From: Chloroflexi bacterium UBA5189
Lineage (GTDB): Bacteria; Chloroflexota; Limnocylindria; Limnocylindrales; CSP1-4
Direction of reading: 5' to 3'
NCBI GenBank assembly: GCA_002413045.1
Contig: DHWF01000027.1
Coordinates: forward strand, 41,413-105,412
DNA: 64,000 bases
Below, in pieces: positions 3,242 to 24,051 of the stretch. Numbering within the stretch: the stretch's first letter is position 1; the number at the start of each line of letters is the position of its first letter. Position numbers and translations under genes: made by a program. The notes beneath the pieces were generated by a model. That model did no database searches. It was not told where the DNA came from and saw only the letters and a list, made by a program, of their open reading frames with translations.

Positions 3242-3298
3242 CCGGAGGATCGTCGGGCCACGGCATCCGCCGGCAGAGCCGCGCGAGGGCATCGTTGC

Positions 3299-3337: not shown

Positions 3338-3425
3338 GACCGCGTGTCCACTCGGACCTTGTTGCCCCCTCGGCGCACCGCCACCGTCGGCATGACCGGA
3401 ATTCCCGCAACGAAGGGGCCAACGC

Positions 3426-4952: not shown

Positions 4953-4999
4953 CCGTCACCGCCAGCCACTGACGCACAGCACGCGAAAGGGAGCACCAG

Positions 5000-8700: not shown

Positions 8701-9483
8701 ATGGATCTTGCCGCCGGCGCCGCCGGAACCGTTGCGGGCCTCCTCCTGCACGGGAAGGCCAAGCTCGTCCGCACCGACAAGCAGGGCGGCGGTGGAGGCG
8801 GCGGCCTCGGCGCGGCGGTGCTCAATGCGGCGGCCTCAGCCGTCGGCCTCGGCGCGGGCGACGACGACGACGAGATGACGTTCATGTTCAACCCCACCGA
8901 GTACCACATCTCGCAGGGCGTCAACTTCAACAGCCCGGATCGACGCGCCACGGGTGGCCCGGCACTCCTGGCGGAATACCTCGGCACGCGGTCGATGACC
9001 GTCACGATGCAGCTGTTCTTCGACGACTTCGCCTCGGCCAAGGGCGACGTCACGCCGAAGATCAGCAAGCTCCTCAAGTGGCAGCAGCCGCAGAACGAGG
9101 ACGGCAAGCCTCCGCCGCTGGTGAAGTTCCAGTGGGGCAACAAGCAGCTCGAGAACTTCAAGGGGATGATCACCGAGCTGGGCATCAACTACACGGTCTT
9201 TGCCAAGGACGGCACGCCCCTCCAGGCGAAGGTGGACCTGACCATCGTGGGAGCCGATGACGTCAAGAAAGGCGGCAACCCCACCTCGCACGCGATCGAC
9301 ATGCGTCGGGTGCATACCGTCGTCGAGGGCGAGACCATCGCGTCCGTCGCCTTCGACGAGCTCGGGGACCCGAACTACTGGCGTGCGATCGCCGACGTCA
9401 ACGACATCGACGATCCGCTGCGCGTCCGGCCCGGCGCCGCCCTCGTCATCCCCAGCGCCGCCGACGCGGCGCGGATGGCCTAG
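8701..9483 (+). CDS. LysM-domain tube-initiator/baseplate hub protein (Afp7 / P2 gpX-like)
   Basis: 260 aa with a central FMFNPTEYHISQG tube-like core. The C-terminal LysM is HTVVEGETIASVAFDELGDPNYWRAIADVNDIDDPLRVRPGAALVIP. Confidence 0.8.
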   Translation: MDLAAGAAGTVAGLLLHGKAKLVRTDKQGGGGGGGLGAAVLNAAASAVGLGAGDDDDEMTFMFNPTEYHISQGVNFNSPDRRATGGPALLAEYLGTRSMTVTMQLFFDDFASAKGDVTPKISKLLKWQQPQNEDGKPPPLVKFQWGNKQLENFKGMITELGINYTVFAKDGTPLQAKVDLTIVGADDVKKGGNPTSHAIDMRRVHTVVEGETIASVAFDELGDPNYWRAIADVNDIDDPLRVRPGAALVIPSAADAARMA

Positions 9484-11709: not shown

Positions 11710-13692
11710 ATGGCGCTGCCCGTGCCCAACCTTGATGACCGACGCTTCCAGGACCTCGTTGACGAGGCGAAGCGGCTGGTCCAGCAGCGCTGTCCCGAGT
11801 GGACCGACCACAATGTCTCCGACCCCGGCGTCACGCTGATCGAGACGTTCGCCTGGATGACCGATCAGCTGATCTATCGGCTCAATCGCGTGCCGGAGCG
11901 GAACTACATCAAGTTCCTCGAGCTCATCGGGGTGACCCTCTTCCCGCCCACGTCGGCCAGGACGGACGTCACGTTCTGGCTCACCGGACCGCAGCCGGAC
12001 GTTGTCAAGATCCCCGCCGCCACCCAGGTAGCGACCGTCCGGACAGAATCCGAGGACGCGATCGAGTTCGCGACGGGCGAGGAGCTGGCGATCATCCCGG
12101 CGACCCTGATCGAGCTCGGGTCGATGGCGAAGGGCAAGTCGACGTACCGCGACATGCTGCCGCAGGTCGAGCTTGGCCGGGATGCCTTCTGCTTCCAGGA
12201 GCGACCACAGCTTGGCGACGCGCTGATGATCGGCCTCTCGAAGGCCGTGCCGTCGAACGCGATCCGCCTCCGCTTCAAATGCGACATCGAGGGCGTCGGC
12301 GTGAACCCGGATCATCCGCCCCTCAAGTGGGAGGCGTGGAACGGCGACGAGTGGATCGGGTGCGAGCAGGATTCGGACTCGACCGGCGGCCTCAACCGCG
12401 ATGGCGACGTCGTGATCCACGTCCCGCGCGGCCATGTCGCGCACTCGATCGGCACACGACTCGCTGCGTGGGTTCGCGCGCGCGTGGTGGAGCCCGAGCC
12501 GGGCATGTTCGGCTACGAAGCCTCGCCGACGGTCAACGCCGCGAGCTCGATCACGGTCGGCGGCACCGCCGCCGCGGTCAATGCGTATGTCGTCCGGAAC
12601 GAGGACCTCGGCGTCTCGGAGGGCACGCCCGGGCAGCGCTTCGAGGTGCGCGAGAAGCCGGTCCTGTCCACCGACGAGCCGGCGAAGCTTGCCGTCTCCG
12701 GCGGGACCGGGACCGATGGCGCCCCGATCTGGGAAACCTGGACCCAGGTCGAGGACTTCGCGGCAAGCGGCCCTGGCGACAAGCACTTCGTGATCGACGG
12801 GACGACGGGTGAGATCCGGTTCGGGCCTGCGATTCGGCAGCAGGATGGCACCTTGCGCCTGTACGGCGCGACGCCGGGCAAGGATCGCTTCATCCGAATG
12901 CTGGAGTACCGCACCGGCGGCGGGGCGCGCGGCAACGTCGCGGCGCACGCGCTCCAGGTGCTCAAGTCGGGCATCGCGGTCGTCTCGACCGTCGAGAACC
13001 GACGCGACGCGCGCGGCGGCATCAACGGCGAGGACATCGAAAACGCCAAGGTCCGTGGTCCGATCCGGCTCCGCACGCGCGGGCGAGCTGTCACCACGGA
13101 GGACTTCGAGCATCTCGCCCGTGAGGCTGCCCCGAACGTCGGCCGGGTTCGGGCGGTCGCTGCCGGTGACGGGGCGCTGGCCGGCGCGGTCCGCGTCCTC
13201 GTGGTGCCATCGCTCCCGAGCGCCGAGGGGCGTATCAAGTTCGAGCAGCTCGTCCCCGAGGCAACCCTCCTCGAGGCGATCACCCAACGGCTCGAGGACT
13301 GCCGCGTGATCGGCACCCGGATCAGCGTCGAGCCGCCGGGCTATCGCGGCGTCACCGTCGAGGCGACCGTGCGGCCGTCGGCCGGGGCCAACGCGAACCG
13401 CCTCAAGGCCGACGCCGAGCGGGCGCTGTACGAGTACTTCCACCCCATCACGGGCGGCCCGGACGGGAATGGCTGGCCGTTCGGCCGGCCGGTCACGATC
13501 GGCGAGATCTACTCGGTCCTCCAGCGCGTGCCTGGGGCCGAGGTCGTGGACACCGTGAACCTGTTCGGCACGAACGCGGAGACCGGCGAGAGCAAGGAGG
13601 CCACCCAGCGCCTCGAGCTGAAGCCGAACGTGCTCGTGTTCAGCGTCGGCCACGCGGTCACCGTGCCCGGCGCCAACTCGGCGATCGCCTGA
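11710..13692 (+). CDS. baseplate J-like protein (Afp11)
   Basis: 660 aa. The N-terminus LDDRRFQDLVDEAKRLVQQRCPEWTDHNVSDPGVTLIETFAWMTDQLIYRLNRVPERNYIKFLELIGV is typical of CIS baseplate J proteins. Confidence 0.9.
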   Translation: MALPVPNLDDRRFQDLVDEAKRLVQQRCPEWTDHNVSDPGVTLIETFAWMTDQLIYRLNRVPERNYIKFLELIGVTLFPPTSARTDVTFWLTGPQPDVVKIPAATQVATVRTESEDAIEFATGEELAIIPATLIELGSMAKGKSTYRDMLPQVELGRDAFCFQERPQLGDALMIGLSKAVPSNAIRLRFKCDIEGVGVNPDHPPLKWEAWNGDEWIGCEQDSDSTGGLNRDGDVVIHVPRGHVAHSIGTRLAAWVRARVVEPEPGMFGYEASPTVNAASSITVGGTAAAVNAYVVRNEDLGVSEGTPGQRFEVREKPVLSTDEPAKLAVSGGTGTDGAPIWETWTQVEDFAASGPGDKHFVIDGTTGEIRFGPAIRQQDGTLRLYGATPGKDRFIRMLEYRTGGGARGNVAAHALQVLKSGIAVVSTVENRRDARGGINGEDIENAKVRGPIRLRTRGRAVTTEDFEHLAREAAPNVGRVRAVAAGDGALAGAVRVLVVPSLPSAEGRIKFEQLVPEATLLEAITQRLEDCRVIGTRISVEPPGYRGVTVEATVRPSAGANANRLKADAERALYEYFHPITGGPDGNGWPFGRPVTIGEIYSVLQRVPGAEVVDTVNLFGTNAETGESKEATQRLELKPNVLVFSVGHAVTVPGANSAIA

Positions 13693-14525
13693 TGCGAGGC
13701 GGCCTCGCGGTCGACGATCCGGCCGGCCTCGCCGACGAGCCGGGCGCGTACACGCTCGTCAACCCGCACCCGCTCGCGGAGACGCTCCCGGGCGTGTACC
13801 GCGATGTCTGGACGGACGAGTACCGCCGCACGGCGCGCGAGCCGTTCGGGACGCGCTTCATCTCGGCGCTCGACGATGTCCTGGCGCCGGTGCTCGCGAC
13901 GCTCGACAGCTTCGAGGGCTACCTCGACCCAACGACGACGTCGGAGGACTTCCTGGCCTGGCTCGGCGAGTGGGTCGCCGCATCGGTTGACGCCGGGTGG
14001 AGCGAGGATCGGCGACGCGCCTTCGTGGCGAAGGCCGCCGAGCTGTATCGGCGCCGAGGCACTGCGGCGGGGCTCCACGATCACGTCCAGATCCACACCG
14101 GCGGCACCGTCGAGATCGTCGAGAACGGGGCCAGTAGCTGGTCGGCGAAGCCAGAGGGAAAGCTCCCGGGCAGCCCGGAGCCGGTCGTCGTGGTTCGGGT
14201 CGTCGTCGACGATCCGGATTCGATCGACAGGACCAAGCTCGAGGCGATCGTCCACGCATCGAAGCCGGCCCACGTCGTCCATCGAGTCGAGGTGGTTGCG
14301 ACTGCCAAGCGGACGAGCGGCAAGGCCAAGCCCGGTACGGCGCAGGACGCCGCCGCCGCGGCAACCGAGGCCGTCGCCGAGGCTGCGGTCACGACCGAGC
14401 CGACGCCGACGCCCGCCGCGGAGCCGACCTCGACGCCCGCCGAGGAGCCGCCGGTAAAGTCCGAGGCAGCCCCGAAGAAGGAAGCCCCGCCGAAGCCCGC
14501 CGACGATCCCGATCCGGCGACCTGA
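13692..14525 (+). CDS. phage tail protein I-like baseplate protein (Afp12) with Pro/Glu/Ala-rich C-terminal tail
   Basis: The ATG overlaps the gpJ stop. The motifs LPGVYRD...FISALDDVLAPV...FLAWLGEWVA...RRAFVAKAAELYRRRGTAAGL match the gpI-like tail protein family. The last ~70 aa are a disordered PT/AE-rich tail. Confidence 0.8.
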   Translation: MRGGLAVDDPAGLADEPGAYTLVNPHPLAETLPGVYRDVWTDEYRRTAREPFGTRFISALDDVLAPVLATLDSFEGYLDPTTTSEDFLAWLGEWVAASVDAGWSEDRRRAFVAKAAELYRRRGTAAGLHDHVQIHTGGTVEIVENGASSWSAKPEGKLPGSPEPVVVVRVVVDDPDSIDRTKLEAIVHASKPAHVVHRVEVVATAKRTSGKAKPGTAQDAAAAATEAVAEAAVTTEPTPTPAAEPTSTPAEEPPVKSEAAPKKEAPPKPADDPDPAT

Positions 14526-14589
14526 CCGGCCCCTGTAGCATGACGCCCGGCGAGCGGGCCCAGACGGGCAGCCGCAGGGAGGGACACGC

Positions 14590-16518
14590 GTGATCCGCTG
14601 CAAGGTCTGCGGCACGATCAACGACGCATCGGTCGTCTTCTGCGGCGGATGCGGCAACTTCCTGCCCGACACCGGCGAGCCATACGACCCGGACGCCGAG
14701 AAGGCCAAGGTCGCGGCCGAGAAGGCGGAGGCCGATCGGGTCGCCGCGGAAAAGGCCGCTGCCGAGAAGGCGGCTGCAGCGAAAGCTGCCGCGGACAAGG
14801 CTGCCGCCGAGAAGGCCGAGGACGATCGCGTTGCGGCCGAGCAGGCCGCCGAACGGGCCGCCGCGGAGAAGGCCGAAGCCGAACGGATCGCGGCAGAGAA
14901 GGCAGCGACCGAGAAGGCGGCCGCCGAAAAGGCCGCTGCCGCGAAGGCCGAAGCGGACCGGCTGGCCGCCGAGCAGGCAGCTGCCGCGAAGGCTGCTGCC
15001 GAGCAGGCCGCCGCAGAGCACGCCGAAGCCGACCGCTTGGCTGCCGAGAAGGCCGCTGCCGAGCAGGCCGCCGCGGAGCAAGCGGAGGCCGACCGCCAGG
15101 CCGCCGAGAAGGCCGCTGCCGAGAAGGCCGCCACGGAGCAGGCCGAGGCAGAACGGGTCGCGGCCGACAAGAAAGCGGTCGAGAAGGCGGAGGCGGCCAA
15201 GGCGAGTGCCGCGCAGTCGAACGCAGCAGCGATCGCGGCCGAGCAGGCTGCGGCAGAGGAGGCCGAGGATCAGCGCGCCGCCGCCGAGAAAGCCGCCGCC
15301 GAGGATGCCGCCGCGAAGCAGGCCGCGGCTGAAAAGGCCGCTGCGGACAAGGCCGCAGCCGAGCAGGCCTCGGCTGAAAGGACCGCGGCGGACAAGGCGG
15401 CTGCGGAACGTGCGGCCGCGGAACAGGCCGCCGCTGAACAAGCAAAGGCAGAAGCGGAGGCCGCAGCGCAGGCGGCGGCAGACAAGGCTGCGGCTGAAAA
15501 GGCCGCTGCTGAGAAGGCAGTCGCGGAGCAGGCCGCCGCGGACAAGGCGGCTGCCGACAAGGCCGCCGCTGATGCCGCCGCCGCCGAGCAGGCAGAGCGA
15601 GATCGACTCGCCGCCGAAGAGGCCGAGGAAGAGCGCGTCGCTGCCGAGCGTGCCGCTGCCCAGCTCGCCGCGATCGAGGCCGCCGAGCAAGAGCGCCTTG
15701 CCCAGGAGCAGGCGGATGCCGACCGACTCGCCGCGGAACAGGAGGAAGCCGAGCAGGCCGCCGCGGAAAAGGCGGAGGCGGACCGCCAGGCGGCGGCCCA
15801 GGCGAAGGTCGGCCAGAGCGCGCGAGAGCTGGCCGCCGCCGAAGCCGCCGAGCGCGCCGCGGTGGCGAAGGCGTATGCCGACCAGCAGGCGGCCGAGGAA
15901 GCCGCGGCAGAGAAGGCGGAGGCGGACCGGATCGCGGCCGAACAGGCGGCCGCGGAGCAGGCGGCTGCGGAGCAGGCGGCTGCGGAGGCCGAGGCCCAGC
16001 GGCAGGCCCGCATCGAGGCTCGCCGGAAGGAAAAGGAGGCCGAGCGGGCCGCCGCGCAGAAGGCCGCCCTGGTGGCGTACCGGGCGACCCTGCGGGCCGC
16101 CGTCGCGAAGGACCGCGCCGGGGAGGTCGGGGCCACCGGCGGGGCGGCTGTCACCGACACTCCCGAGGCGCCAACCGAGACGCCCGACGACGGGGGTCTC
16201 GGCAGCATCGCCGCGGCGGCGACCGACGACGACGAGATCGCGGTGCCCGGCGTTTCGAAGCCGAAGCCGCCGCCCGAGCCGGCGGTCGAGCAGATGCGGA
16301 TCTGCCCGAACTGCGGCACGGCGAACCGAGCCGACCGCAAGTTCTGCATGAAGTGCGGCCATCCCATGCCGGAGGGCGAGGTCGTGCCGCCGGTGATCTG
16401 CACGAATTGCGGCACGCCGAACAGCTCGACGCGGCGGTTCTGCATGAAGTGCGGCTCGAGCCTCGTCGACGCGCCGCCGCCCGATCCGGACGCCAGCCCG
16501 TGGTGGAAACGCTCCTGA
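14590..16518 (+). CDS. zinc-ribbon / ~450-aa Ala-Glu-Lys helical repeat / double zinc-ribbon protein (unknown function, CIS fibre/tape-measure slot)
   Basis: 642 aa. GTG start with RBS GGGAGGGA. The N-terminus is MIRCKVCGTINDASVVFCGGCG (C-x2-C-x10-C-x2-C). The centre is AAEKA-type pentad repeats compositionally like TolA domain II. The C-terminus has ICPNCGTANRADRKFCMKCG and ICTNCGTPNSSTRRFCMKCG. No signal peptide or TM segment is visible. Confidence 0.85.
   Translation: MIRCKVCGTINDASVVFCGGCGNFLPDTGEPYDPDAEKAKVAAEKAEADRVAAEKAAAEKAAAAKAAADKAAAEKAEDDRVAAEQAAERAAAEKAEAERIAAEKAATEKAAAEKAAAAKAEADRLAAEQAAAAKAAAEQAAAEHAEADRLAAEKAAAEQAAAEQAEADRQAAEKAAAEKAATEQAEAERVAADKKAVEKAEAAKASAAQSNAAAIAAEQAAAEEAEDQRAAAEKAAAEDAAAKQAAAEKAAADKAAAEQASAERTAADKAAAERAAAEQAAAEQAKAEAEAAAQAAADKAAAEKAAAEKAVAEQAAADKAAADKAAADAAAAEQAERDRLAAEEAEEERVAAERAAAQLAAIEAAEQERLAQEQADADRLAAEQEEAEQAAAEKAEADRQAAAQAKVGQSARELAAAEAAERAAVAKAYADQQAAEEAAAEKAEADRIAAEQAAAEQAAAEQAAAEAEAQRQARIEARRKEKEAERAAAQKAALVAYRATLRAAVAKDRAGEVGATGGAAVTDTPEAPTETPDDGGLGSIAAAATDDDEIAVPGVSKPKPPPEPAVEQMRICPNCGTANRADRKFCMKCGHPMPEGEVVPPVICTNCGTPNSSTRRFCMKCGSSLVDAPPPDPDASPWWKRS
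14722..16074 (+). repeat. intragenic degenerate tandem repeat (about 15-nt period, GCC-GCC-GAG-AAG-GCC type) encoding the Ala/Glu/Lys helix
   Basis: Repeated gccgccgagaaggccgctgcc / gccgccgagcaggccgcc units are visible across about 1.35 kb. They are in frame with the CDS. Boundaries are approximate. Confidence 0.75.
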
Positions 16519-16527
16519 GGCGTTCCT

Positions 16528-16546
16528 GCTCGCCGAACCGGCGAGC
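16528..16546. terminator. 8-bp GC-rich hairpin between convergent genes (weak terminator candidate)
   Basis: GCTCGCCG-AAC-CGGCGAGC lies in the 27-nt gap between the 16518 (+) and 16546 (-) gene ends. There is no U-tract on either side, so function is uncertain. Confidence 0.3.
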
Positions 16547-19500
16547 TACGCGGAGTTCGCGGCGAGCTCCGGGCTGAGGCCCAGCCCCTCCAGGATCGAG
16601 GCGTATTCCCGCCGGTCGCGGCTCGCGGCGCCCGAATCGCCGGCCTGATCCCTCGCCGAGATCAAGACGCGCCACAGCGGGTCGTGGAATCGATCGAGCT
16701 CGAGGCCGCGCCGGCAGACCCGGATCGCCTCCTCGAGGTCGCCGGCCGCGGCGGCATCGTCGGCGACGATCGTCGCCCCCTCGACGGCCTCGCGGCGGAA
16801 GTGCTCGCGCCGCTCGACGGCCCACTCGGCGGGGCCGTCCTGCGGCAGCAGGTCGCCGCGGTACAGCATGAGCGCGGTCGCGAAATCGGCCGTGCCGCCG
16901 CCGAGCCGCCCGGAGCCGTTGCGCAGGCCGCGTGCCCGAGCCATCGCCCGCTCGAACCTGCCCACGTCGACCTGGTCCGGGTCGACCGCCAACCGGTAGG
17001 CGTCGCCCTCTCGAGCGATCAGCCGGGTCGCGTCACCGCCGAGGGCATCCGAGAACAGGCCGCGCAGCGAGGACACCGCGACGTGCAGGCTGCGCGCGCC
17101 GGTCGCCGCGTCGACCTCCGGCCACAGCGCCTCCTGGATGACCTCGCGATGGATCGCCACGCCCGGCCGCGCTGCGAGGAAGCGCAGGACGGCGCGAGCG
17201 CGAGGCTTGATCCCGTCGAGCGCGATCGGGCGGCCATCGACCTCGACGCCGAAGCCCCCGAACAGGTGGAATCCGAGCCCGGCCGTCGACGGCGTGGCGC
17301 GAGCCGAAATGCCCCGGGGCAGCGGCGAGATGGCGACGCTCCCGTCTCGCCCGACCGTCGCGCGAGCGCCGGGCGGGGCGGCGTCGACGGCGTCGGTTGG
17401 TGCGTCGGCCGCGGTCGCGGCGTCGTGGCTCGAGGCGGGCACCCGGAGACCGGTCTCGACCTGGACCGCGTCCGCCAGCGATTCGTATTCGTCGCGCCGC
17501 TGGGGATGCGCGGTCGCGAGCGCGAGGTACGCGAGCAGCCGCGGGCCGGACGTGCCGGTCGCGCGCGCCAGGCTCTCGACGCCGAGGGCCGTCTCGCGCG
17601 CTTCGGGGGCGCCTGATTCGGCCATGCCGTACGCCTGCAGCCCTCGCGCAAAGGCCTCGAGGACGCCCACGCCAAGGCGCCGCGCGATCGCAGCGGCCTG
17701 CTCGCCGGCGGCCGCCCGCACCTCGCCCGTCTCGATCGCCTCGGCGGCGGCTCCGGCCGTGCCGATCGGCCGGGCGACCCAGGCCGACACGAGCGCGCCG
17801 AACAGGGCACCCCACGGGTCCGCGTCGGGTCCGAGGGCGTCGATCGAGGGCGCTTCGGCGGCGGTCGCGCCATCGACCTCGATCCCACCGATCCGCGCGG
17901 CGACCCGCCCCATCGACGCCAGCCACGGAAGCCCGGTGCGCTCCGCGATGTCGATCGCGTCCGCCAGCTGGTGGTCGGCGCCCGGCTCGCCCGAGAGCAG
18001 GGCCGCGACGGCGGCCGCTACGGCGGCCGCTGCACCGAGCACGGGATCGAGCTCTTCGAGCTGGCTCGCTGCGGTGAGGGCCCGCTTTGCCTCGGTGACC
18101 TCGCCGGCCGCGAGCAGGAGCAGCCCGCGGACGAGCTCGCGGTGCTCCGGGTCGAGGCGTGGATCGCGCGCCGCGGCGACCGGCTCGCGGACGAGGCCGG
18201 CCCGCAGGACGCCGGTCCAGTCCGCGGGTGGAATTGCAACCGGATCGAGCCAGGCGGCGAGCGCGAGGCGCTCCCGCCGGGCGGTCGAGCCCGCCGTGGA
18301 CGCTCCGAATGCCGCCTCGGCGCGCGTGTAGGCGTCCTGTGCCGCCGCCCAGCGACCATCGGCACGTGCGCGGCGTGCCGACGCGAGGGCGAGCCATGGG
18401 CTGTCGCGGACGAGCGCGGCCGGCAGCAGCTCCAGCCGCAGGCCCGGCCCAACCGCGACCTGCTCGCCCCGGTTGCCGACCAGGCTCGAGACGGCCGGCC
18501 AATCCTCGGCGCGGCAGTATCCGACGAGCGCCTCGGGGAGGGCACCGCTGCGCTCGAGCAGGCTCGCGGCGCGCTGATGCCGCCCGCGTGCCTCAACCTC
18601 GCCGACCTCCTCGACGAGCATCCGGTCCAGGTGCGATCGCAACACCTCGTGGTACCGGTACGAGCCTTCGCCCTCGTCGACGACGACCGTGAACAGCTGG
18701 CGCCGGGCGAGCTCCTCGAGCAGGAGGGCGCTCCCCCGCCGGTCGAGGAGTTGGTCGCACAAGTCGCCGGTGAGCCGCGGCAGCACGCACGTGTCGATGA
18801 GGAACCGCCGGAGCTCATCGGGCAGCTCGGCGAGAACGTTCCGGGTCAGGTACTCGCGCAACAGCCGCGTGCTCGACCCGACGCTGCCGAGAATCCGGCG
18901 CCGCTCGTCGGCGGACTTGCCGCGCGTCGCGAGGTGGAACAGCTGGAGCCCCGCCGCCCAGCCTTCGGTGCGGCGCGCCAGGACGGCGAGCTCGCCGGGC
19001 GGCACGGGATCCCGATAGAAGTCACGGAACAGGCGCTCGACCTCCCACGACCGGAAGCGCAGATCGTCGCCCTCGATCTGGAGCAGGTCGCCGGAGACGC
19101 GCAGGCGCGACAGGTTGAAGTCCGGCCGCACGCGTGATGCGGCGAGGATTCGCAGCCACGGCGGCGCGTAGTCGACCAGCCGGCTGAGGGCCGCCTCGGC
19201 GGCCGTGCCCTCGAGGGCGTGGAGGTCGTCGATCACGAGCGCGGCCGGGCCGCCGGACCAGCGCTCGAGCGCCCGCGCCGCGTCCTCGACGTCCGTCCAG
19301 CCGCCGGGCAGTCCCGGGAGCACCGCGCCGAGCGATGCCTCGAGGTGGCGGAGCATCCGCTGCGGGTCGTCGTCCCACGTTTCGGCGCGATACCAGGCGA
19401 CCGGCATCCGGGTCGACGCGGCAAACCGAGCCAGGAGGGTGGTCTTGCCGGCGCCCGCCGGAGCGATCACGAGGGTCAGGCGGTGGCGCTCCACCGCGGC

Positions 19501-19644
19501 TGCGAGCTGGGCTTCGAGGCGCTCACGCGGGAGTGCCGGAGCGGCGGGAGCGCGCACCTTCGCGGGTACCACCGCAGGCGCCTCGCCACCCGGCAGGACT
19601 GCGCGGCGGACACGGGCATCGTGCCGATCCTCTGGCAACGTCAA
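16546..19644 (-). CDS. STAND-type regulator: MalT-like NTPase + helical repeat region + C-terminal SARP (OmpR-type wHTH + BTAD) module
   Basis: 1032 aa. It has Walker A APAGAGKTT and Walker B LVIDDLH with a MalT-like N-terminal third, and a long Ala/Leu-rich helical middle. The C-terminus runs FHLFGGFGVEVDGRPIAL...RAVLRFLAARPG..IHREVIQEALWPE...YRL..VDVGRFE, followed by the BTAD-like YRGDLLPQDGPAEWAVERREHFR...DPLWRVLISA. TTG start. Confidence 0.85.
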   Translation of the reverse strand: MTLPEDRHDARVRRAVLPGGEAPAVVPAKVRAPAAPALPRERLEAQLAAAVERHRLTLVIAPAGAGKTTLLARFAASTRMPVAWYRAETWDDDPQRMLRHLEASLGAVLPGLPGGWTDVEDAARALERWSGGPAALVIDDLHALEGTAAEAALSRLVDYAPPWLRILAASRVRPDFNLSRLRVSGDLLQIEGDDLRFRSWEVERLFRDFYRDPVPPGELAVLARRTEGWAAGLQLFHLATRGKSADERRRILGSVGSSTRLLREYLTRNVLAELPDELRRFLIDTCVLPRLTGDLCDQLLDRRGSALLLEELARRQLFTVVVDEGEGSYRYHEVLRSHLDRMLVEEVGEVEARGRHQRAASLLERSGALPEALVGYCRAEDWPAVSSLVGNRGEQVAVGPGLRLELLPAALVRDSPWLALASARRARADGRWAAAQDAYTRAEAAFGASTAGSTARRERLALAAWLDPVAIPPADWTGVLRAGLVREPVAAARDPRLDPEHRELVRGLLLLAAGEVTEAKRALTAASQLEELDPVLGAAAAVAAAVAALLSGEPGADHQLADAIDIAERTGLPWLASMGRVAARIGGIEVDGATAAEAPSIDALGPDADPWGALFGALVSAWVARPIGTAGAAAEAIETGEVRAAAGEQAAAIARRLGVGVLEAFARGLQAYGMAESGAPEARETALGVESLARATGTSGPRLLAYLALATAHPQRRDEYESLADAVQVETGLRVPASSHDAATAADAPTDAVDAAPPGARATVGRDGSVAISPLPRGISARATPSTAGLGFHLFGGFGVEVDGRPIALDGIKPRARAVLRFLAARPGVAIHREVIQEALWPEVDAATGARSLHVAVSSLRGLFSDALGGDATRLIAREGDAYRLAVDPDQVDVGRFERAMARARGLRNGSGRLGGGTADFATALMLYRGDLLPQDGPAEWAVERREHFRREAVEGATIVADDAAAAGDLEEAIRVCRRGLELDRFHDPLWRVLISARDQAGDSGAASRDRREYASILEGLGLSPELAANSA

Positions 19645-19724: not shown

Positions 19725-21146
19725 TCAATGCCAGGTCGGCGAGATGTCGGAGCTCGGACCGGTCGTGAGCGTGACGATCTTGTTGTTGGTGCGATCGAGG
19801 ATGTACAGGTCCTCGCTGCCCGCCGTGCCGCCCGAGAAGACGATGTAGCGCCCGCCCGGCGAGAAATAGGGATGGCGCTCGTCACCCTTGATGCTCGGCA
19901 GCGCCGTGATCTGGCCGGAGGCGATGTCCAGGATGAACAGGTCGAACCCGCTGCCGCTGCGATTGCTCGCGAAGACGACCTGGGTGCCGTCCGGCGAGAC
20001 CGCCGGGTCGCGATCCTCGAACGAATCGGTCGTCAGGTTCTTGACCGTCTTCGAGGCGACGTCAAAGATCATCAGCTCCGCCGCGTTGCCGTCGCCCTCG
20101 ACGAAGACGATCGACTTGCCGTCGGGCGTGAAGACGGGCTGGGTGTCAACGACATCGTTGTTGGTCAGCGGCTGGGAGGCCACGCTTGCCGCCAACCCAT
20201 CGATCCGGATCTCGAGATCGGTCCCGTTGTTGTCGCGGGAGCGAATGCCGGCGAACGTCAGCTGCTTGCCGTCCGGGGACCACGAGGCGCCGGAGTCGCC
20301 GAGGCCGGTGGAGTGCTGGACATATGACTTCGTTGCCACGGCCACGATGCGCAGGCCGGGCTTCACGGAGTAGATGACCTGCTTCCTGTCGTACGACAGG
20401 CTGGGGTCGAAGGCCGAAGGGCTCGTGCTCGTGATCCGAACGGACCTCGACTTGCCATCGGCGTTGATGACGTAGATCGCGCAGGCCGTGCCGTCGCTCG
20501 CGCAACGAGCGAACGCCACCAGGCCGGTCCGGGCGCCCTCCTTGAACGTGAGTGACGCAGCGCTCGGCGTGACCGTCGCTGCAACGGACGGGAGCGTGGT
20601 CGCGGCGGGCAGCGATGCGCGCGCGGTCGGCGCGAGGGTGGCCGCGGGCGAGCCGCCGAACGCGAGCACGCCGATCAGCGCGAGGGCGACGACGACCGCT
20701 GCGGCGCCGAGGCCGATCGCGACCGGCGAGATCTTCCGGGCGACCGGCGCCGGGGCCGGCGGTGGGGGCGGAGGCGCAGCCGGCTTGAGCTCATTGGCGC
20801 ACTTGCGGCAATACGTCCGCGTGGCGTCGTTGACCGTCGCGCAGACGCTGCAGATGATCGTGGGTTTGCCTGACGAGACGTCGTCCTCGACGGTATTCGG
20901 ATCGGCGGCGCCGGCCGCCGAGGTCGGCGCCGGCCTGCCCTGCGCCGCGCCGGTCCCGAGATCCCGGCGAGCCCCGATTCCCTGACCGGGCACGACCGTG
21001 TCGTCCGGACCCGGTGCAACGGCCTCGGGCTTCGTGGCCTCCTCGACGATGGCCGTCGCCTCGGCGGGGCTCAGGGGGCTGCCGCACGTCCCGCAGAACA
21101 GGGCCGCGGCCTCGTTCTCCGAGCCACAGACCTTGCACTTGATCAC
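19725..21146 (-). CDS. double zinc-ribbon / single-TM / TolB-like (PD40) beta-propeller protein
   Basis: Trimmed to GTG at 21146 (RBS GGAGAGGGGA). It has VIKCKVCGSENEAAALFCGTCG and IICSVCATVNDATRTYCRKC ribbons, then the TM segment ISPVAIGLGAAAVVVALALIGVLAF. PD40-like repeats follow (SWSPDGKQLTF, FTPDGKSIVFV, VSPDGTQVVFASNRSG.FDLFILD, YFSPGGRYIVFSG). Confidence 0.85.
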   Translation of the reverse strand: MIKCKVCGSENEAAALFCGTCGSPLSPAEATAIVEEATKPEAVAPGPDDTVVPGQGIGARRDLGTGAAQGRPAPTSAAGAADPNTVEDDVSSGKPTIICSVCATVNDATRTYCRKCANELKPAAPPPPPPAPAPVARKISPVAIGLGAAAVVVALALIGVLAFGGSPAATLAPTARASLPAATTLPSVAATVTPSAASLTFKEGARTGLVAFARCASDGTACAIYVINADGKSRSVRITSTSPSAFDPSLSYDRKQVIYSVKPGLRIVAVATKSYVQHSTGLGDSGASWSPDGKQLTFAGIRSRDNNGTDLEIRIDGLAASVASQPLTNNDVVDTQPVFTPDGKSIVFVEGDGNAAELMIFDVASKTVKNLTTDSFEDRDPAVSPDGTQVVFASNRSGSGFDLFILDIASGQITALPSIKGDERHPYFSPGGRYIVFSGGTAGSEDLYILDRTNNKIVTLTTGPSSDISPTWH

Positions 21147-21228: not shown

Positions 21229-22623
21229 ATGAGTGTCCTCGCGACGATCGAGCCCAGCGAGCTCCAGGTCGACGCGGGCAACGAGACCTCGCTCGTCGTT
21301 CGGGTTCGCAACCGCGGCACGATCGTCGACCAGTTCGACATCAAGGTCGTCGGACCGACGGGTCACTGGGCGACGGTCGACCCGCCGTCGCTGCGCCTCT
21401 TCCCGGACAAGGAGGGCGAGGCAAGGGTCACCTTCCGGCCGCCGCGCGCCCCGGACCCGATGGCCGATGTCTACCCGTTCGGCATCGCCGTTCGCGCCGC
21501 CTCCGACACGAGCGCCATGACGGTCGAGGAGGGCCACGTCGCGGTCGCGCCGTTCGTGCAGCTGACCTCCGAGGTGGTTCCCCAGACTTCACGCGGCGTC
21601 TTCTCCGGCGCGCACGACGTGACCGTCCACAACGTGGGCAACGCGGTCGCCGAGGTAACGGTCCTGGCGAGCGATCCGGACCGGCTCCTGAACTTCGAGG
21701 TCACGCCCGCGCGCGCCGGCCTGAAGCCCGGCGGCTCCGCAACGCTGCGCACCAAGGTGAAGCCCAAGTCGACCTTCTTCATGGGCGGCGCGAAGCGCAT
21801 CCCGTTCTCGATCCAGGTCAATGAGCCGACCGCCGGTTCCTACCAGATTCCCGCGACCATCGAGCAGCGCCCGATCATCCCCGGTTGGGTCAAGCCCGTC
21901 GGCGCGCTCATCCTCGCGTCGGTCGCCGCCGTCGCGTTCCTGCCCAAGATCCTGTTCCCGCCGCAGCCGACCGCTGCGCCGACGCAGGCAGCGGTCGTCA
22001 CGCCAAGCCCGGTGATCACGCCGACGCCCGCCCCCGTCACCGCCCCACCCACCGAGGCGCCGACCGCTGCGCCTCCCACGCAGGAGAACTTCGGGCCGCC
22101 GAACAAGCTGACGGTCGCGGGCGATGTGGGCGGGCTGAGCTCGTCTCTCGGGATCACGTTCCGGTGCCCGCCCAAGGACGCATGCCGTGACGACGTGAAG
22201 ACGCGGGTGCTCCAGGTGCTGTCCGGTCTTGGCGTCAACGCCGCGGGGGCCCAGCTCACGAAGTTCATCACGACCAACGTGGGCACGCTCCCGGTCGTCG
22301 CGTCTTGGACGGACCGATATCCGTACACGGCCAACGGCGCGCAGTTCTTCGCCAAGCAGGTCGCGATCGACCTCGCGCCGAAGCTGGCCGGACAGCCCGC
22401 TTATGCATACATCCAGGACGACAACGGGACGGTTCACTGGTTGACGATCCCGGACCAGCTCGCGGACACGCTGCTCAATCAGCTGTACAACCTGCCGGTT
22501 GCGCCCGCGCCCACCGTCGACCCCGGCGCGATCGTGAACGGTCAGGTCTTCTATGCGAACTTCTACAGCGTTGCGCAGTACGACGGCTTCCAACTGTCGA
22601 CGCTGCCGTTCACGGGGCCGTAG
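21229..22623 (+). CDS. bitopic membrane protein: two Ig-like/CARDB-like N-terminal modules, TM, Pro/Thr linker, C-terminal globular domain
   Basis: 464 aa. The repeated pattern LQVDAGNETSLVVRVRNRGTIVDQFDIKVVG and HDVTVHNVGNAVAEVTVLASDP marks the N-terminal modules. The TM segment is VGALILASVAAVAFLPKILF, followed by a PT-rich linker and a ~170-aa C-terminal domain. It is divergent from 19725..21146. TAGACT lies 6 nt before the ATG, so a leaderless start is possible. Confidence 0.8.
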   Translation: MSVLATIEPSELQVDAGNETSLVVRVRNRGTIVDQFDIKVVGPTGHWATVDPPSLRLFPDKEGEARVTFRPPRAPDPMADVYPFGIAVRAASDTSAMTVEEGHVAVAPFVQLTSEVVPQTSRGVFSGAHDVTVHNVGNAVAEVTVLASDPDRLLNFEVTPARAGLKPGGSATLRTKVKPKSTFFMGGAKRIPFSIQVNEPTAGSYQIPATIEQRPIIPGWVKPVGALILASVAAVAFLPKILFPPQPTAAPTQAAVVTPSPVITPTPAPVTAPPTEAPTAAPPTQENFGPPNKLTVAGDVGGLSSSLGITFRCPPKDACRDDVKTRVLQVLSGLGVNAAGAQLTKFITTNVGTLPVVASWTDRYPYTANGAQFFAKQVAIDLAPKLAGQPAYAYIQDDNGTVHWLTIPDQLADTLLNQLYNLPVAPAPTVDPGAIVNGQVFYANFYSVAQYDGFQLSTLPFTGP

Positions 22624-22710
22624 AGAACCCTCCGGAGCGCCGAATCGGGCGTGCTATGCTCCGCCGCCCGGTGGCCCGGACGGGCCCGGATCGGGAGTGC
22701 AGATCGCTCG

Positions 22711-24051
22711 ATGACCGCGGGCCCAACCGCCGGCACCATGGACCAGCTCGAGCTCGGCCTTGGCGTGCCGCGCCTCGCGATCGAGCCCGAGTGGAAGGCC
22801 GAACCGCGGCTGTGGGGCCACTCGCTGCACCCGATGTGCTCGTATCTCGCGAGCTTCCCGGCCGCCCTGTCGCACGCCTTCATCGCTCGCTACAGCCGGC
22901 CCGGTGACGTCGTCCTCGACCCATTCTCCGGCCGCGGCACCGTGCCGCTCCAGGCAGCCGCCGAGGGCCGGATCGGCGTCGGCAACGACCTCAACCCGTT
23001 CGCGCACCTCCTGACGGCGGCCAAGGTCGAGCCGCCGACCGCAGCCCAGGCGAGGACGCGGGCGACGGCGCTCCGGCTCGCGTTCGGAGCATCAGCCCCG
23101 TCGTGGCGCGACCTCGCCGCCGCGATCCAGGCCGACCCGACCACCGGTGGCCCCGAGCCCGTACCAACGGAGGTGGCCCTGGCGTTCCACCCGCGGACGT
23201 TCGCGCAGCTGTTGTTCCTGCGCGCCTCTCTGGACCTCGCGGCACCCACCGATCGGTTCCTGGCCGCGGCGATCGTCGGCATCCTGCACGGCAAGAGCCC
23301 GTCGTACCTGTCCACGCTCATGCCGAACACCTTCAGCATGGCGCCGCGCTACGTCCGCGACTTCGCGGCCCGAACCGGGTTCAGCTCCCCGGAGCGGGAC
23401 GCATTCGACGGGCTCGACGCCAAGCTGACCCGGCTCTATCGCGACCCGCTCCCCCGCTCCGGCGGGCTGGCGCTCCTCGGCGACGCTCGCGACGCCGGAA
23501 CGCGCGCGACCGCTGCGCTCACCGCCCGCCGCCAGCCGGCCCGCGCGCGACTGGTCATCACCTCGCCGCCGTACCTGCGCGTCGTGAAGTACGGCTACTA
23601 CAACTGGCTCCGGACGTGGTTCCTCGGCTTCGACTCGCACGCCATTGACGCGTCGCTCGACGATGCCCACCGGCGGGCGCCGTATCTCGAGTTCATGCGG
23701 ACCGTCCTGCGCGACCTCCGGCCGGCAATGACCGAGGACGGCATCGCGGTGCTCGTGATCGGGGATGTCGCCACCGACCGTGGGCGGGCCGTCACCGATG
23801 GCCACGACCTCGCCGAGCGCGTCTGGGAATCGGCCGCGGCGCCCGAAGGCTTCCGGCTCGCCGGAATCGCCGACGACGACGTCCACGCCCACCGCAAGAT
23901 GACCAAGCTGTGGGGCCGCGAGGCGGGTCGCGCGACGCAGGTCGACCGCATCCTCGTCCTCGGAGCGACCGATGCGGGCCGGCGGCGGGCGCTCTCCGGC
24001 GCCCGGAATCCCGTCGACTGGACCTGGCCGCCGCGCCTCCGCGCGCTCTGA
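22711..24051 (+). CDS. DNA (N6-adenine/N4-cytosine type) methyltransferase, motif I before motif IV
   Basis: VLDPFSGRGTVPLQAAAEG (FxGxG, motif I) lies about 200 aa before ITSPPYLRVVKY (SPPY, motif IV). No adjacent restriction endonuclease is evident. The start is uncertain (GTG 22651, ATG 22711 or ATG 22738). Confidence 0.75.
   Translation: MTAGPTAGTMDQLELGLGVPRLAIEPEWKAEPRLWGHSLHPMCSYLASFPAALSHAFIARYSRPGDVVLDPFSGRGTVPLQAAAEGRIGVGNDLNPFAHLLTAAKVEPPTAAQARTRATALRLAFGASAPSWRDLAAAIQADPTTGGPEPVPTEVALAFHPRTFAQLLFLRASLDLAAPTDRFLAAAIVGILHGKSPSYLSTLMPNTFSMAPRYVRDFAARTGFSSPERDAFDGLDAKLTRLYRDPLPRSGGLALLGDARDAGTRATAALTARRQPARARLVITSPPYLRVVKYGYYNWLRTWFLGFDSHAIDASLDDAHRRAPYLEFMRTVLRDLRPAMTEDGIAVLVIGDVATDRGRAVTDGHDLAERVWESAAAPEGFRLAGIADDDVHAHRKMTKLWGREAGRATQVDRILVLGATDAGRRRALSGARNPVDWTWPPRLRAL

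What the first reader, a model, noticed from the sequence alone, without database searches (positions are those of the whole stretch)
19725..21146. Paralogous zinc ribbons on a TM-anchored TolB-like beta-propeller: candidate envelope partner of the CIS
The N-terminus VIKCKVCGSENEAAALFCGTCGSPL is nearly superimposable on MIRCKVCGTINDASVVFCGGCGNFL of the 14590 gene. The two share the same C-x2-C-x10-C-x2-C spacing and about 14 of 25 identical residues. A second ribbon of the same spacing follows. Together the two proteins carry five copies of this module. Here the ribbons precede a Pro/Ala linker, one TM helix and an extracytoplasmic PD40/TolB-like propeller. A shared cytoplasmic module on a long helical protein and on a membrane/envelope protein, only one gene apart, suggests they dock to a common partner or to each other. 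The TolA-like helix plus TolB-like propeller pairing is also suggestive. Function is entirely inferred.
Basis: partly seen in the sequence, partly recalled or inferred. Interest (0 to 1): 0.7.

Follow-up and report, generated by a model that had tools for sequence, protein, structure and literature searches.

The report
CisA-like membrane partner of a CIS
This gene encodes a membrane-anchored protein whose two cytoplasmic zinc ribbons are the same ordered pair found in CisA, the membrane protein that Streptomyces needs to fire its intracellular phage-tail-like injection system, but here the outer domain is a TolB-like propeller instead of CisA's sugar-binding domain.

Summary
Gene 19725-21146 (-) encodes 473 aa: zinc ribbon, disordered linker, zinc ribbon, Pro-rich stretch, one TM helix and a six-bladed TolB-like PD40 propeller. 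The 14590 gene carries three more ribbons. These are the only five ribbons in real reading frames of the window.

The window is a Chloroflexota (Limnocylindria) type IId contractile injection system (CIS) locus, the Streptomyces-like cytoplasmic kind. In about 60 of 74 related loci across three phyla, the gene after cis12 has this layout: class A ribbon, linker, class B ribbon, PWW[RK]R motif, TM, about 165 aa glycan-binding domain. That matches the position, size and topology of Streptomyces CisA, which is needed for firing.

The target has ribbons A then B then a TM in the same order, but a propeller ectodomain. The 14590 protein is a CisA that ends right after PWW[RK]R, so it has no TM.

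Every target homologue with enough context lies in the same CIS block. 79 generic PD40 loci have no ribbons and no CIS genes.

"Envelope partner of the CIS" is supported. The TolA/TolB analogy is not. I read the target as a domain-swapped CisA paralogue, a new variant of a known kind. Its function is inferred, not shown.

The parts
19725..21146 (-). Target gene T: 473 aa bitopic protein (ribbon A, linker, ribbon B, Pro-rich stretch, TM, Ser/Pro/Ala linker, PD40 propeller)
21072..21146 (-). T ribbon A (residues 1-25; C4, C7, C18, C21)
   Evidence: Cysteines invariant in 43 orthologues. Scores 34.1 bits against the class A HMM and 21.9 against class B. Mean majority fraction 0.92. AF2 pLDDT about 80.
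20862..21071 (-). T cytoplasmic linker (residues 26-95), disordered, with the conserved motif PDxxVVPGxG-ARRDLGTG
   Evidence: pLDDT below 50 for residues 30-93. D48, V51, P53, G54, R61, L63 and G64 are at least 90% conserved.
20784..20861 (-). T ribbon B (residues 96-121; C99, C102, C113, C116), membrane-proximal
   Evidence: Scores 38.0 bits against the class B HMM and 21.2 against class A. Mean majority fraction 0.89.
20658..20723 (-). T transmembrane helix (residues about 142-163), preceded by a Pro-rich stretch and R/K
   Evidence: AF2 helix 142-163. Hydropathy score 2.68.
19728..20531 (-). T extracytoplasmic six-bladed PD40 / TolB-like beta-propeller (residues 206-473)
   Evidence: PD40 E 4.7e-24. 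pLDDT above 90. Best Foldseek matches are TolB, E 5.8e-20. Below the TolB equivalog cut-off.
14590..16518 (+). H gene at the cisA position: class A ribbon (14590-14664), helices (about 14689-16134), two class B ribbons (16303-16356 and 16399-16452), C-terminal PWWKRS; no TM. A truncated CisA.
16546..19644 (-). STAND (MalT-like) + wHTH + BTAD regulator. It lies immediately downstream of T on the same strand and converges on H.
   Evidence: Conserved after the cisA-position gene in 37 of 45 loci with at least 6 kb of flank.
21229..22623 (+). Divergent neighbour: Ig-like (Cep192_D3/ASH) domains, TM, C-terminal domain. Probably Sco4256-family.
   Evidence: PMC10020575 describes Sco4256 (PapD-like domain plus TM) in type IId loci, including Chloroflexi.
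11710..14525 (+). CIS baseplate wedge genes cis11 (Baseplate_J, 11710-13692) and cis12 (Tail_P2_I, 13692-14525), candidate docking partners
   Evidence: The AF2-Multimer CisA-Cis11 prediction is reported in PMC12237407.

Best explanation
T is a domain-swapped paralogue of CisA, the membrane adaptor of type IId (cytoplasmic, Streptomyces-type) contractile injection systems.

Proposed topology and mechanism:
- Its N-terminus sits in the cytoplasm and carries the CisA-family cassette: a class A zinc ribbon, then a flexible linker, then a class B zinc ribbon close to the membrane.
- A single TM helix follows.
- Where CisA has a glycan-binding discoidin domain, T displays a TolB-like PD40 propeller outside the membrane.
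- I propose that the ribbons dock the free-floating CIS at the membrane. The contact would be with the baseplate (Cis11/Cis12) directly, or through the soluble, truncated CisA encoded at 14590, which keeps ribbons A and B.
- I propose that the propeller anchors the protein to, or senses, an envelope component, so that membrane recruitment and firing respond to an envelope cue.

Shown here: the architecture, the ribbon classes and their order, the fold, membership of the CIS gene block, and strong purifying selection on the ribbons.

Inferred only: the N-in topology, zinc binding, the docking partner, and any role in firing.
For: 1. The locus is a complete CIS: AAA ATPase, Pvc16 cap, sheath, tube, CIS_tube, VgrG, gp25, Baseplate_J and Tail_P2_I. 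Its baseplate J retrieves Streptomyces, Acidimicrobiia, Dormibacterota and Chloroflexota loci.

2. In 55 of 74 such loci, phmmer finds a class A ribbon ORF starting within 400 bp of the cis12 end. The regex scan adds the Streptomyces-type loci and others. The typical layout is ribbon A, a 150-650 aa linker, ribbon B, PWW[RK]R...AGERP, TM, then an ectodomain of about 165 aa.

3. 42 of these ectodomains form one homologous cluster that includes Streptomyces. They match the NADase-type glycan-binding domain (95.6 bits against a cut-off of 38). This fits the published description of CisA/Sco4242: position just downstream of the baseplate genes, TM, a C-terminal domain of about 150 aa, and a Cys-rich putative Zn domain about 50 aa before the TM (PMC10020575, PMC12237407).

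4. HMMs built only from canonical CisA ribbons assign T's ribbons in order. Z1 scores A 34.1 / B 21.9 and Z2 scores A 21.2 / B 38.0. Basal T-family members score 58-65 bits for class A, with the full FLEWSG signature. Most generic ribbons score 33 bits or less.

5. Context of T-family genes:
- Look-ups that started from T show the block Ig-like, T, regulator, cisA-position gene, cis12, cis11, gp25, VgrG in L001, L002, L004, L005, L169 and L171.
- Truncated contigs L003, L006, L007 and L088 keep the same near neighbours.
- The outer flanks differ between loci.
- 79 generic PD40 loci have no ribbons, no CIS genes, no regulator and no Ig-like gene.

6. In L026 and L036 there is no gene at the cisA position, and a T-like protein is the only ribbon-plus-TM protein. 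In the window clade the cisA-position protein has lost its TM.

7. Ribbons A and B are the most conserved parts of T (0.92 and 0.89, against 0.64 for the propeller and about 0.52 for the linkers). That is comparable with the CIS structural protein Cis11 (82-93% identity) in loci where whole T is 48-87% identical.
Against: - No interaction or functional data exist for T, and multimer modelling was not available here.
- T is not at the canonical cisA position. It is co-oriented with the regulator rather than with the structural operon.
- T coexists with a full-length CisA in L011-L013 and L171, so it is not simply a replacement for CisA.
- The window-clade ribbon A scores only just above the generic range (34 bits) and has lost the FLEW signature.
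- T lacks the PWW[RK]R motif that follows ribbon B in CisA.
- All T-family members come from one part of Chloroflexota, so conserved synteny partly reflects shared ancestry.
- Two-ribbon-plus-TM proteins with weak A/B scores also occur outside CIS loci (P0140 in L170).
Confidence: 0.55

Rival explanations
1. T is an envelope sensor that works through the adjacent STAND/BTAD regulator. The propeller would detect an extracytoplasmic cue. The ribbons would bind or sequester the regulator, so T would control transcription of the CIS genes rather than touch the particle.
For: T lies immediately upstream of the regulator on the same strand, about 80 bp away, in the window and in L001-L009, L011-L015, L169 and L171. 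PD40 propellers are common sensor ectodomains on wHTH regulators and kinases, for example hits P0090, P0091, P0107, P0108 and P0111.
Against: The regulator is equally conserved in loci that have no T (37 of 45 loci have the regulator, only 8 have T). T's ribbons match CisA's, and CisA acts on firing, not expression, in Streptomyces (PMC12237407). In L026 and L036, T is divergent from the regulator and co-oriented with the Ig-like gene.
Confidence: 0.2
2. T and H form a two-part CisA. H would bind the baseplate, and its ribbons would pair with T's ribbons. The membrane anchor (T) and the baseplate binder (H, a helical spacer of up to about 70 nm) would then be separate polypeptides that dock to each other.
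For: H is a CisA cut exactly after PWW[RK]R and before the TM. T is the only ribbon-plus-TM protein in this clade. Both proteins lost the FLEW signature in the same clade. H has three long predicted helices, 34-201, 214-399 and 415-515.
Against: T already existed alongside full-length CisA (L011-L013, L171), so it did not arise to complement H. The shared loss of FLEW is a single evolutionary event. No evidence shows that zinc ribbons of this type heterodimerise.
Confidence: 0.15
3. T is an ordinary envelope PD40 protein with generic N-terminal zinc ribbons. Its resemblance to the 14590 protein and its position would be family-level similarity plus inherited synteny, with no CIS role.
For: Pfam sees only generic Zn_Ribbon_1/DZR/DUF7577. 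Baseline identity between such ribbons is 9-10 of 25. Generic multi-ribbon and ribbon-plus-TM proteins are abundant.
Against: The ordered A-then-B assignment. The strong class A signature in basal T members (58-65 bits). Exclusive occurrence inside the CIS block while outer flanks vary. The absence of ribbons from 79 generic PD40 loci. Ribbon conservation far above that of the rest of the protein.
Confidence: 0.07
4. H and T are a Tol-like pair. The Ala/Glu/Lys helix would act like TolA domain II and the propeller like TolB, forming a trans-envelope link.
For: TolB gives the best structural matches for the propeller. H has a TolA-like composition.
Against: H has no TM helix or signal peptide (hydropathy -0.8), and its zinc ribbons imply a cytoplasmic location. 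The propeller is on the other side of the membrane. T fails the TolB equivalog model (143.6 against 343 bits; profile positions 147-384 only), with no TolB_N match. No neighbouring gene I scanned matched a Tol-Pal family.
Confidence: 0.03

Closest known systems
CisA (SCO4242) of the Streptomyces coelicolor cytoplasmic CIS (type IId); PMC12237407, PMC10020575, PMC10066040
   Same: Both are encoded in a type IId CIS cluster. Both are bitopic with a cytoplasmic N-terminus. Both have an N-terminal class A zinc ribbon, a disordered linker, and a class B (Cys-rich, putative Zn) domain shortly before the single TM. Both have an extracytoplasmic C-terminal domain.
   Different: The ectodomain is a six-bladed PD40 propeller of about 270 aa, not the NADase-type / F5-8-type-C glycan-binding domain of about 165 aa. 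There is no PWW[RK]R...AGERP motif after ribbon B. The A-B linker is short (about 70 aa). The gene is not directly downstream of cis12 but next to the regulator. In some genomes T coexists with a canonical CisA.
TolB (Tol-Pal system periplasmic propeller)
   Same: A six-bladed PD40 beta-propeller. TolB gives the best PDB matches (E about 1e-19, rmsd 2.6-2.9 over about 276 columns).
   Different: T has no signal peptide, no TolB N-terminal alpha/beta domain and no tol-pal neighbours among the genes I scanned, and it is TM-anchored with cytoplasmic zinc ribbons. It scores below the TolB equivalog cut-off. Sequence identity is 19-24%.
ZitP of Caulobacter (from my own knowledge; not tested here)
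   Same: A bitopic membrane protein whose N-terminal cytoplasmic zinc-finger or ribbon recruits a cytoplasmic partner (PopZ). It is a precedent for such ribbons acting as docking modules.
   Different: It belongs to an unrelated family (MJ0042-type finger, DUF3426 ectodomain) and has no link to CIS.
Generic Zn_Ribbon_1 / DZR / DUF7577 N-terminal ribbons on membrane proteins
   Same: Same CxxC-x10-CxxC fold family. Pfam hits pass the gathering thresholds.
   Different: T's ribbons fall into the two CIS-specific classes in the CisA order, and they occur only in CIS loci.

Membership tests
CisA family (type IId CIS membrane adaptor) | Encoded within a type IId CIS gene cluster | tested here: met
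   T lies between the cluster's regulator and the Sco4256-like Ig gene, 5.2 kb from cis12. The same block is seen in all homologue contexts with enough flank.
CisA family (type IId CIS membrane adaptor) | Position immediately downstream of the baseplate genes cis11/cis12 | tested here: not met
   That position is occupied by the 14590 gene (H). T is two genes further on and on the opposite strand.
CisA family (type IId CIS membrane adaptor) | Bitopic: cytoplasmic N-terminal region, one TM, extracytoplasmic C-terminal domain | tested here: met
   By prediction only. A single hydrophobic helix at 142-163, R/K before it, Cys4 ribbons on the N-terminal side, and no signal peptide. The topology itself is not experimentally testable here.
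CisA family (type IId CIS membrane adaptor) | Cys-rich putative Zn-binding domain shortly before the TM (Vladimirov 2023); here called class B ribbon | tested here: met
   T Z2 scores 38.0 bits against the class B HMM built from 34 distinct canonical CisA ribbons, against 21.2 for class A. It lies about 25 aa before the TM.
CisA family (type IId CIS membrane adaptor) | N-terminal class A ribbon (defined here from 36 canonical proteins) | tested here: met
   T Z1 scores A 34.1 / B 21.9. Basal T-family members score A 58-65. The window-clade score is only marginally above that of generic ribbons.
CisA family (type IId CIS membrane adaptor) | Conserved C-terminal glycan-binding (NADase-type discoidin) domain of about 150-165 aa | tested here: not met
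   T's ectodomain clusters separately from the 42 CisA C-terminal domains and is a PD40 propeller.
CisA family (type IId CIS membrane adaptor) | PWW[RK]R...AGERP juxtamembrane motif after ribbon B (seen here in canonical members) | tested here: not met
   Absent from T. Present in canonical CisA from three phyla and at the very C-terminus of H.
CisA family (type IId CIS membrane adaptor) | Required for CIS contraction or firing | not testable with these tools
   Needs genetics and cryoET.
TolB | Six-bladed PD40 beta-propeller | tested here: met
   Foldseek matches to TolB, E 5.8e-20. PD40 repeats.
TolB | N-terminal alpha/beta domain (TolB_N) and full-length match to the TolB equivalog model | tested here: not met
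   TIGR02800 gives 143.6 bits against a cut-off of 343, covering profile positions 147-384 only. No TolB_N hit.
TolB | Secreted soluble periplasmic protein encoded in a tol-pal operon | tested here: not met
   T has no signal peptide and is TM-anchored. The scanned neighbours are a regulator, an Ig-like protein, a methylase and CIS genes.
TolA (considered for the 14590 protein) | N-terminal TM anchor, long helical domain II, C-terminal TolA domain III | tested here: not met
   Only the helical region is present. There is no TM (hydropathy -0.8) and no TolA-related Pfam hit. The protein has zinc ribbons at both ends.
Zn_Ribbon_1 / DZR (Pfam) | CxxC-x(n)-CxxC ribbon passing the Pfam gathering score | tested here: met
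   Zn_Ribbon_1 28.1 bits against 25; DZR 30.9 against 27.3; DUF7577 42.6 against 28.

The most novel reading that the evidence does not exclude
CisA-type proteins would form a modular family across Actinomycetota, Dormibacterota and Chloroflexota. A fixed cytoplasmic cassette (ribbon A, linker, ribbon B) would dock the cytoplasmic CIS baseplate. Interchangeable ectodomains would couple firing to different envelope cues: a glycan-binding discoidin domain, a TolB-like propeller, or at least one further type (P0227 in L168). In the window clade the system would have been split into a soluble CisA remnant (H, helical region up to about 70 nm if fully extended) and the propeller-bearing anchor T. 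Together these would act as a two-component tether or trigger. The N-terminal ribbon, not mentioned in the four CIS papers I searched for it, would be a key determinant of CisA function in Streptomyces too.
Probability: 0.3. Interest if true: 0.75.

Novelty: new variant of a known kind. Interest (0 to 1): 0.6.

Why it matters
How cytoplasmic (type IId) CIS reach the membrane and are triggered is an open question. CisA is required in Streptomyces, but its cytoplasmic region is described as largely unstructured and its partner is unconfirmed (PMC12237407). [quoted passage not shown]

This locus and its relatives suggest three things:
- The conserved functional core of CisA-type adaptors is a pair of zinc ribbons, in a fixed order, next to the TM.
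- The ectodomain is swappable. Here it is a TolB-like propeller.
- One lineage has a naturally truncated, soluble CisA alongside the propeller variant.

That gives concrete experiments, namely Cys-to-Ser mutants of ribbons A and B in S. coelicolor CisA, ectodomain swaps, and binding tests of the ribbons against Cis11/Cis12. It also gives sequence signatures for finding adaptors in uncultured phyla.

Tried and rejected
- The metagenome-contig scan with the T alignment was swamped by the generic propeller pattern. Only 1 of 80 loci (L088) was a true T homologue. I used the other 79 as a negative control.
- The sigma-70 promoter and intrinsic terminator scans around the genes gave nothing above shuffles.
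- A PDB sequence search with T(1-125) gave only weak generic ribbon hits (DZANK1, ArnA, RNF31) and no informative partner.
- NCBIfam gave no specific family for H, the Ig-like protein or the ribbons.
- P0140, a two-ribbon-plus-TM protein of 618 aa, looked like another ectodomain variant. Its A/B scores are in the generic range and its 8 kb context has no recognised CIS gene, so I treat it as unrelated.
- I rejected the TolA/TolB reading on topology and on the failed TolB equivalog score.
- I considered whether H might be an assembly or annotation truncation. I rejected this because eight loci (window, L001-L005, L008, L009) end the protein at the same PWW[RK]R motif, or EWWRK in L009. In the window the regulator's stop codon lies only 27 bp downstream.
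- Multimer modelling could not be run. The structure tool takes one chain, and only window or database sequences.
Full report
**What is at the coordinates**

The minus-strand ORF 19725-21146 starts with GTG and encodes 473 aa. A database protein is identical over exactly these 473 aa, and about 85 full-length orthologues are 457-507 aa, which supports this start.

Reading from the N-terminus:
- A CxxC-x10-CxxC ribbon (residues 1-25).
- A disordered linker (26-95).
- A second ribbon (96-121).
- A Pro-rich stretch ending in R/K.
- One hydrophobic helix (142-163).
- A Ser/Pro/Ala/Thr-rich linker.
- A PD40 propeller (206-473).

The supporting results are as follows. Pfam gives PD40 (E 4.7e-24), DUF7577, DZR and Zn_Ribbon_1. 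AlphaFold2 on a 43-sequence alignment gives pLDDT above 90 for the propeller, about 80 for ribbon 1 and below 50 for the linker. Foldseek's best PDB matches are TolB structures (7mx5_A, E 5.8e-20, rmsd 2.7-2.9 over about 276 columns).

A six-frame scan finds the five x10 ribbons in this gene and in the 14590 gene; a sixth match in the 14590 gene only bridges its two adjacent C-terminal ribbons. The two remaining matches are in frames that are not coding by GC3.

One caveat applies. 424 generic x10 ribbons, taken from proteins that were themselves selected for similarity to the target, share on average 9-10 of 25 positions with these ribbons. Against that background, 14 or more identities occurs in 1-2.6% of comparisons. 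The pairwise similarity alone is therefore only moderately above background.

**The surroundings**

The window has about 70% G+C. Names on orthologues place it in Chloroflexota, Candidatus Limnocylindria/Limnocylindrales.

Upstream lies a complete contractile injection system:

| Coordinates (strand) | Product |
|---|---|
| 354-2510 (-) | AAA ATPase |
| 2507-3427 (-) | Pvc16-type cap |
| 3426-4952 | sheath |
| 4973-5434 | tube |
| 8701-9483 | CIS_tube |
| 9493-11307 | VgrG |
| before 11710 | gp25-like ORF (my reading of the translation; homologous loci carry GPW_gp25 at this position) |
| 11710-13692 | Baseplate_J (cis11) |
| 13692-14525 | Tail_P2_I (cis12) |

Downstream of cis12 come:

| Coordinates (strand) | Product |
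|---|---|
| 14590-16518 (+) | the ribbon-helix-ribbon protein, here called H |
| 16546-19644 (-) | a MalT-like STAND + wHTH + BTAD regulator |
| 19725-21146 (-) | the target, here called T |
| 21229-22623 (+) | a divergent gene with Ig-like domains, a TM and a C-terminal domain |
| 22651-24051 (+) | an N6/N4 DNA methylase |

**Is T part of the CIS locus?**

I looked up contigs starting from T homologues, which is independent of any CIS query.
- The same block appears in L001, L002, L004, L005, L169 and L171: Ig-like gene, T, regulator, cisA-position gene, cis12, cis11, gp25, VgrG.
- Shorter contigs (L003, L006, L007, L088) stop inside the block but keep the same immediate neighbours.
- Beyond the methylase the flanks differ. 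L004 and L005 have PspA/TPM genes inserted, L006 has an S8 peptidase, and L169 and L171 have metabolic genes.

This variation argues that the block travels together, rather than reflecting plain inherited synteny.

As a negative control, 79 loci retrieved through the generic propeller motif contain no ribbons and no baseplate, regulator or Ig-like genes.

**The key result: the ribbons are the CisA cassette**

A scan of one genome per species with a baseplate J alignment returned 80 loci. They come from Limnocylindria, other Chloroflexota, Dormibacterota, Acidimicrobiia, Pseudonocardiaceae, Arthrobacter and Streptomyces. This is the type IId, Streptomyces-like lineage of cytoplasmic CIS (PMC12998442).

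In 55 of the 74 loci with room after cis12, phmmer finds an ORF starting within 400 bp that begins with a ribbon like H's. The regex scan adds the Streptomyces-type loci and several others.

These proteins share one layout:
- A class A N-terminal ribbon, consensus VIVCxxCGxxNxxxDxFCGSCGxFLEWTG.
- A variable linker of 150-650 aa.
- A class B ribbon, consensus DLxCGxCGxGNDPxRKFCRRCGxSL.
- A PWW[RK]R...AGERP motif.
- A TM helix about 50 residues after ribbon B.
- An ectodomain of about 165 aa.

42 of these ectodomains form a single homologous cluster that includes the Streptomyces proteins. They match the NADase-type glycan-binding (F5/8 type C) domain, with 95.6 bits against a cut-off of 38 for the Streptomyces example.

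The position, size, topology and sugar-binding C-terminal domain equal the published description of CisA/SCO4242. [quoted passage not shown] It is bitopic with a cytoplasmic N-terminus, and it is required for CIS contraction and function (PMC12237407, PMC10066040). Vladimirov et al. already noted a Cys-rich, possibly Zn-binding region of about 50 residues before the TM, which they suggested might attach the protein to the baseplate (PMC10020575). That region is my class B ribbon. I found no mention of the N-terminal class A ribbon. 'Zinc' does not occur in the CisA paper, which calls the N-terminal region largely unstructured. No paper in the library combines the terms CIS, zinc ribbon and membrane.

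**Where T and H fit**

I built HMMs only from canonical CisA ribbons and scored the window's ribbons against both:

| Ribbon | Class A bits | Class B bits |
|---|---|---|
| T ribbon 1 | 34.1 | 21.9 |
| T ribbon 2 | 21.2 | 38.0 |
| H ribbon 1 | 39.6 | 19.7 |
| H ribbon 2 | 34.2 | 41.7 |
| H ribbon 3 | 32.4 | 49.0 |

Basal members of the T family (L011-L013, L015, L036; representatives P0146, P0156, P0158, P0213) keep the full FLEWSG signature and score 49-65 bits for class A. Most generic ribbons score 33 bits or less.

T therefore has the CisA cytoplasmic cassette in the CisA order, followed by a TM, but with a PD40 propeller ectodomain. Its ectodomain falls in a separate cluster of 15.

H is a CisA that stops at the juxtamembrane motif. 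It ends ...SPWWKRS, exactly where canonical proteins continue into the basic stretch, the TM and the C-terminal domain. It has no hydrophobic segment. Between its ribbons are three long predicted helices, 34-201, 214-399 and 415-515, built from a 15-nt repeat present in about 59 copies.

Three configurations occur:
- T together with a full-length CisA (L011-L013, L171).
- T together with truncated H (window, L001-L005, L008, L009).
- T alone, with no gene at the cisA position (L026, L036).

A further ectodomain variant, P0227, sits directly after cis12 in L168.

**Selection**

Across 43 T orthologues the ribbons are by far the most conserved regions. The majority fraction is 0.92 for ribbon A and 0.89 for ribbon B, against 0.64 for the propeller and about 0.52 for the linkers. 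All eight cysteines are invariant. In loci where whole T is 48-87% identical to the window protein, Cis11 is 82-93% identical. The ribbons thus evolve about as slowly as the CIS structural proteins, while the exposed domain evolves faster.

**Most likely mechanism**

I conclude that T is a domain-swapped CisA paralogue.
- The cytoplasmic ribbons dock a conserved cytoplasmic partner. This is most plausibly the peripheral baseplate wedge (Cis11/Cis12), as predicted for CisA by AF2-Multimer in PMC12237407, or the soluble CisA remnant H.
- The TM fixes this contact at the membrane.
- The propeller binds or senses an envelope component, so that recruitment and firing depend on an envelope cue.

Shown here: the architecture, the ribbon classes and order, the fold, locus membership and selection. 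Inferred: zinc binding, the N-in topology, the partner and any effect on firing. I give this reading a probability of about 0.55.

**Rivals**

| Rival | Probability | Main points |
|---|---|---|
| T as a sensor acting through the adjacent regulator | 0.2 | For: co-orientation with the regulator; PD40 ectodomains are common on wHTH regulators and kinases. Against: the regulator is present in 37 of 45 loci but T in only 8. |
| T and H forming a split CisA by ribbon-ribbon pairing | 0.15 | A special case of the main idea. |
| A generic envelope protein with no CIS role | 0.07 | See the rival entry for the evidence against. |
H has no TM or signal peptide. T fails the TolB equivalog model (143.6 against 343 bits, propeller part only). 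T lacks TolB_N and has no Tol-Pal neighbours among the genes I scanned. |

**Comparison with what is known, and novelty**

T works like CisA and shares CisA's cytoplasmic cassette. It fails three CisA features: the position after cis12, the glycan-binding C-terminal domain and the PWW[RK]R motif. I therefore file it as a new variant of a known kind, not as a CisA orthologue. It is not TolB.

The result matters for three reasons. The membrane step of cytoplasmic CIS is unresolved. Close cisA homologues were reported missing in Roseiflexus (PMC12998442). The ordered ribbon pair gives a testable functional core for CisA itself.

**Limits**
- All T-family members come from one region of Chloroflexota.
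- The window-clade class A score is close to the generic range.
- I identified the Streptomyces proteins as CisA orthologues from position, size, topology and domain content, not from the SCO4242 sequence itself.

Noticed in passing
window 14590-16518 (C-terminus at about 16500-16515); L012, L013, L016, L077, L082, L087 and others: Canonical CisA-position proteins from three phyla share a PWW[RK]R...AGERP motif between ribbon B and the TM. The window's H protein and its orthologues end exactly at this motif (PWWKRS, PWWRRS, EWWRKT). H is therefore a CisA truncated before the membrane anchor.
   Followed up: yes
window 21229-22623 (+); L053:7887-10898: The divergent neighbour has Ig-like (Cep192_D3/ASH, PapD-like) domains, one TM and a C-terminal domain of about 170 aa. 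It recurs in actinomycete type IId loci (L060, L065, L069, L070, L078, L081, L085). It fits the published description of Sco4256, the putative toxin or effector. In L053 a class A ribbon lies at the N-terminus of the same 1004-codon ORF as an Ig-like match.
   Followed up: partly
window 16546-19644 (-): A MalT-like STAND + wHTH + BTAD regulator of 1032 aa converges on the cisA-position gene. A homologue is present in 37 of 45 type IId loci with at least 6 kb of flank, from Chloroflexota to Streptomyces.
   Followed up: partly
window 6062-8209 (+): A 715-aa Ala/Pro/Ser-rich low-complexity ORF lies inside the structural operon, between the tube and CIS_tube genes. It has about eight scattered 'VQR'-type motifs and a conserved-looking C-terminal helix (ELEELAQALFSRIRGRLRNELIHDRE). 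It has no Pfam hit and did not pass my GC3/GC2 coding screen.
   Followed up: no
window 22651-24051 (+); L001, L002, L004, L005, L006, L008: An N6/N4 DNA methyltransferase gene is conserved at the outer end of the T / Ig-like block in Limnocylindria loci. This is an odd companion for a CIS.
   Followed up: no
L004:4099-6983; L005:4078-7074: PspA_IM30 and TPM_phosphatase genes (fused into one 998-aa product in L005) are inserted next to the methylase in two related loci. This may be a link to membrane stress.
   Followed up: no
window 20862-21071 (-), T residues 44-66: The otherwise disordered linker between T's ribbons holds a conserved short motif, PDxxVVPGxG-ARRDLGTG (D48, V51, P53, G54, R61, L63, G64 at least 90% conserved). 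It is restricted to the window clade. H has a loosely similar DDDEIAVPG stretch before its C-terminal ribbons.
   Followed up: partly
window about 20481-20504 (-), T residues C215 and C222: Two nearly invariant cysteines sit in the first blade of the propeller (FARCxxxGxxCxIY). They may form an extracytoplasmic disulfide. They are absent from basal T-family members.
   Followed up: no
L026 and L036 (around 12560-17580): In these Chloroflexota loci cis12 is followed directly by the regulator. There is no gene at the cisA position, and the T-like ribbon-TM-propeller protein is the only CisA-type protein.
   Followed up: partly
L168:749-2362 (P0227): This 537-aa protein has strong class A and class B ribbons (53 and 42 bits) and a TM. 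Its ectodomain matches neither the T-propeller nor the CisA C-terminal-domain HMM, with only a faint DUF6242 hit. It lies directly after Tail_P2_I, making it a third ectodomain variant of the CisA architecture.
   Followed up: partly
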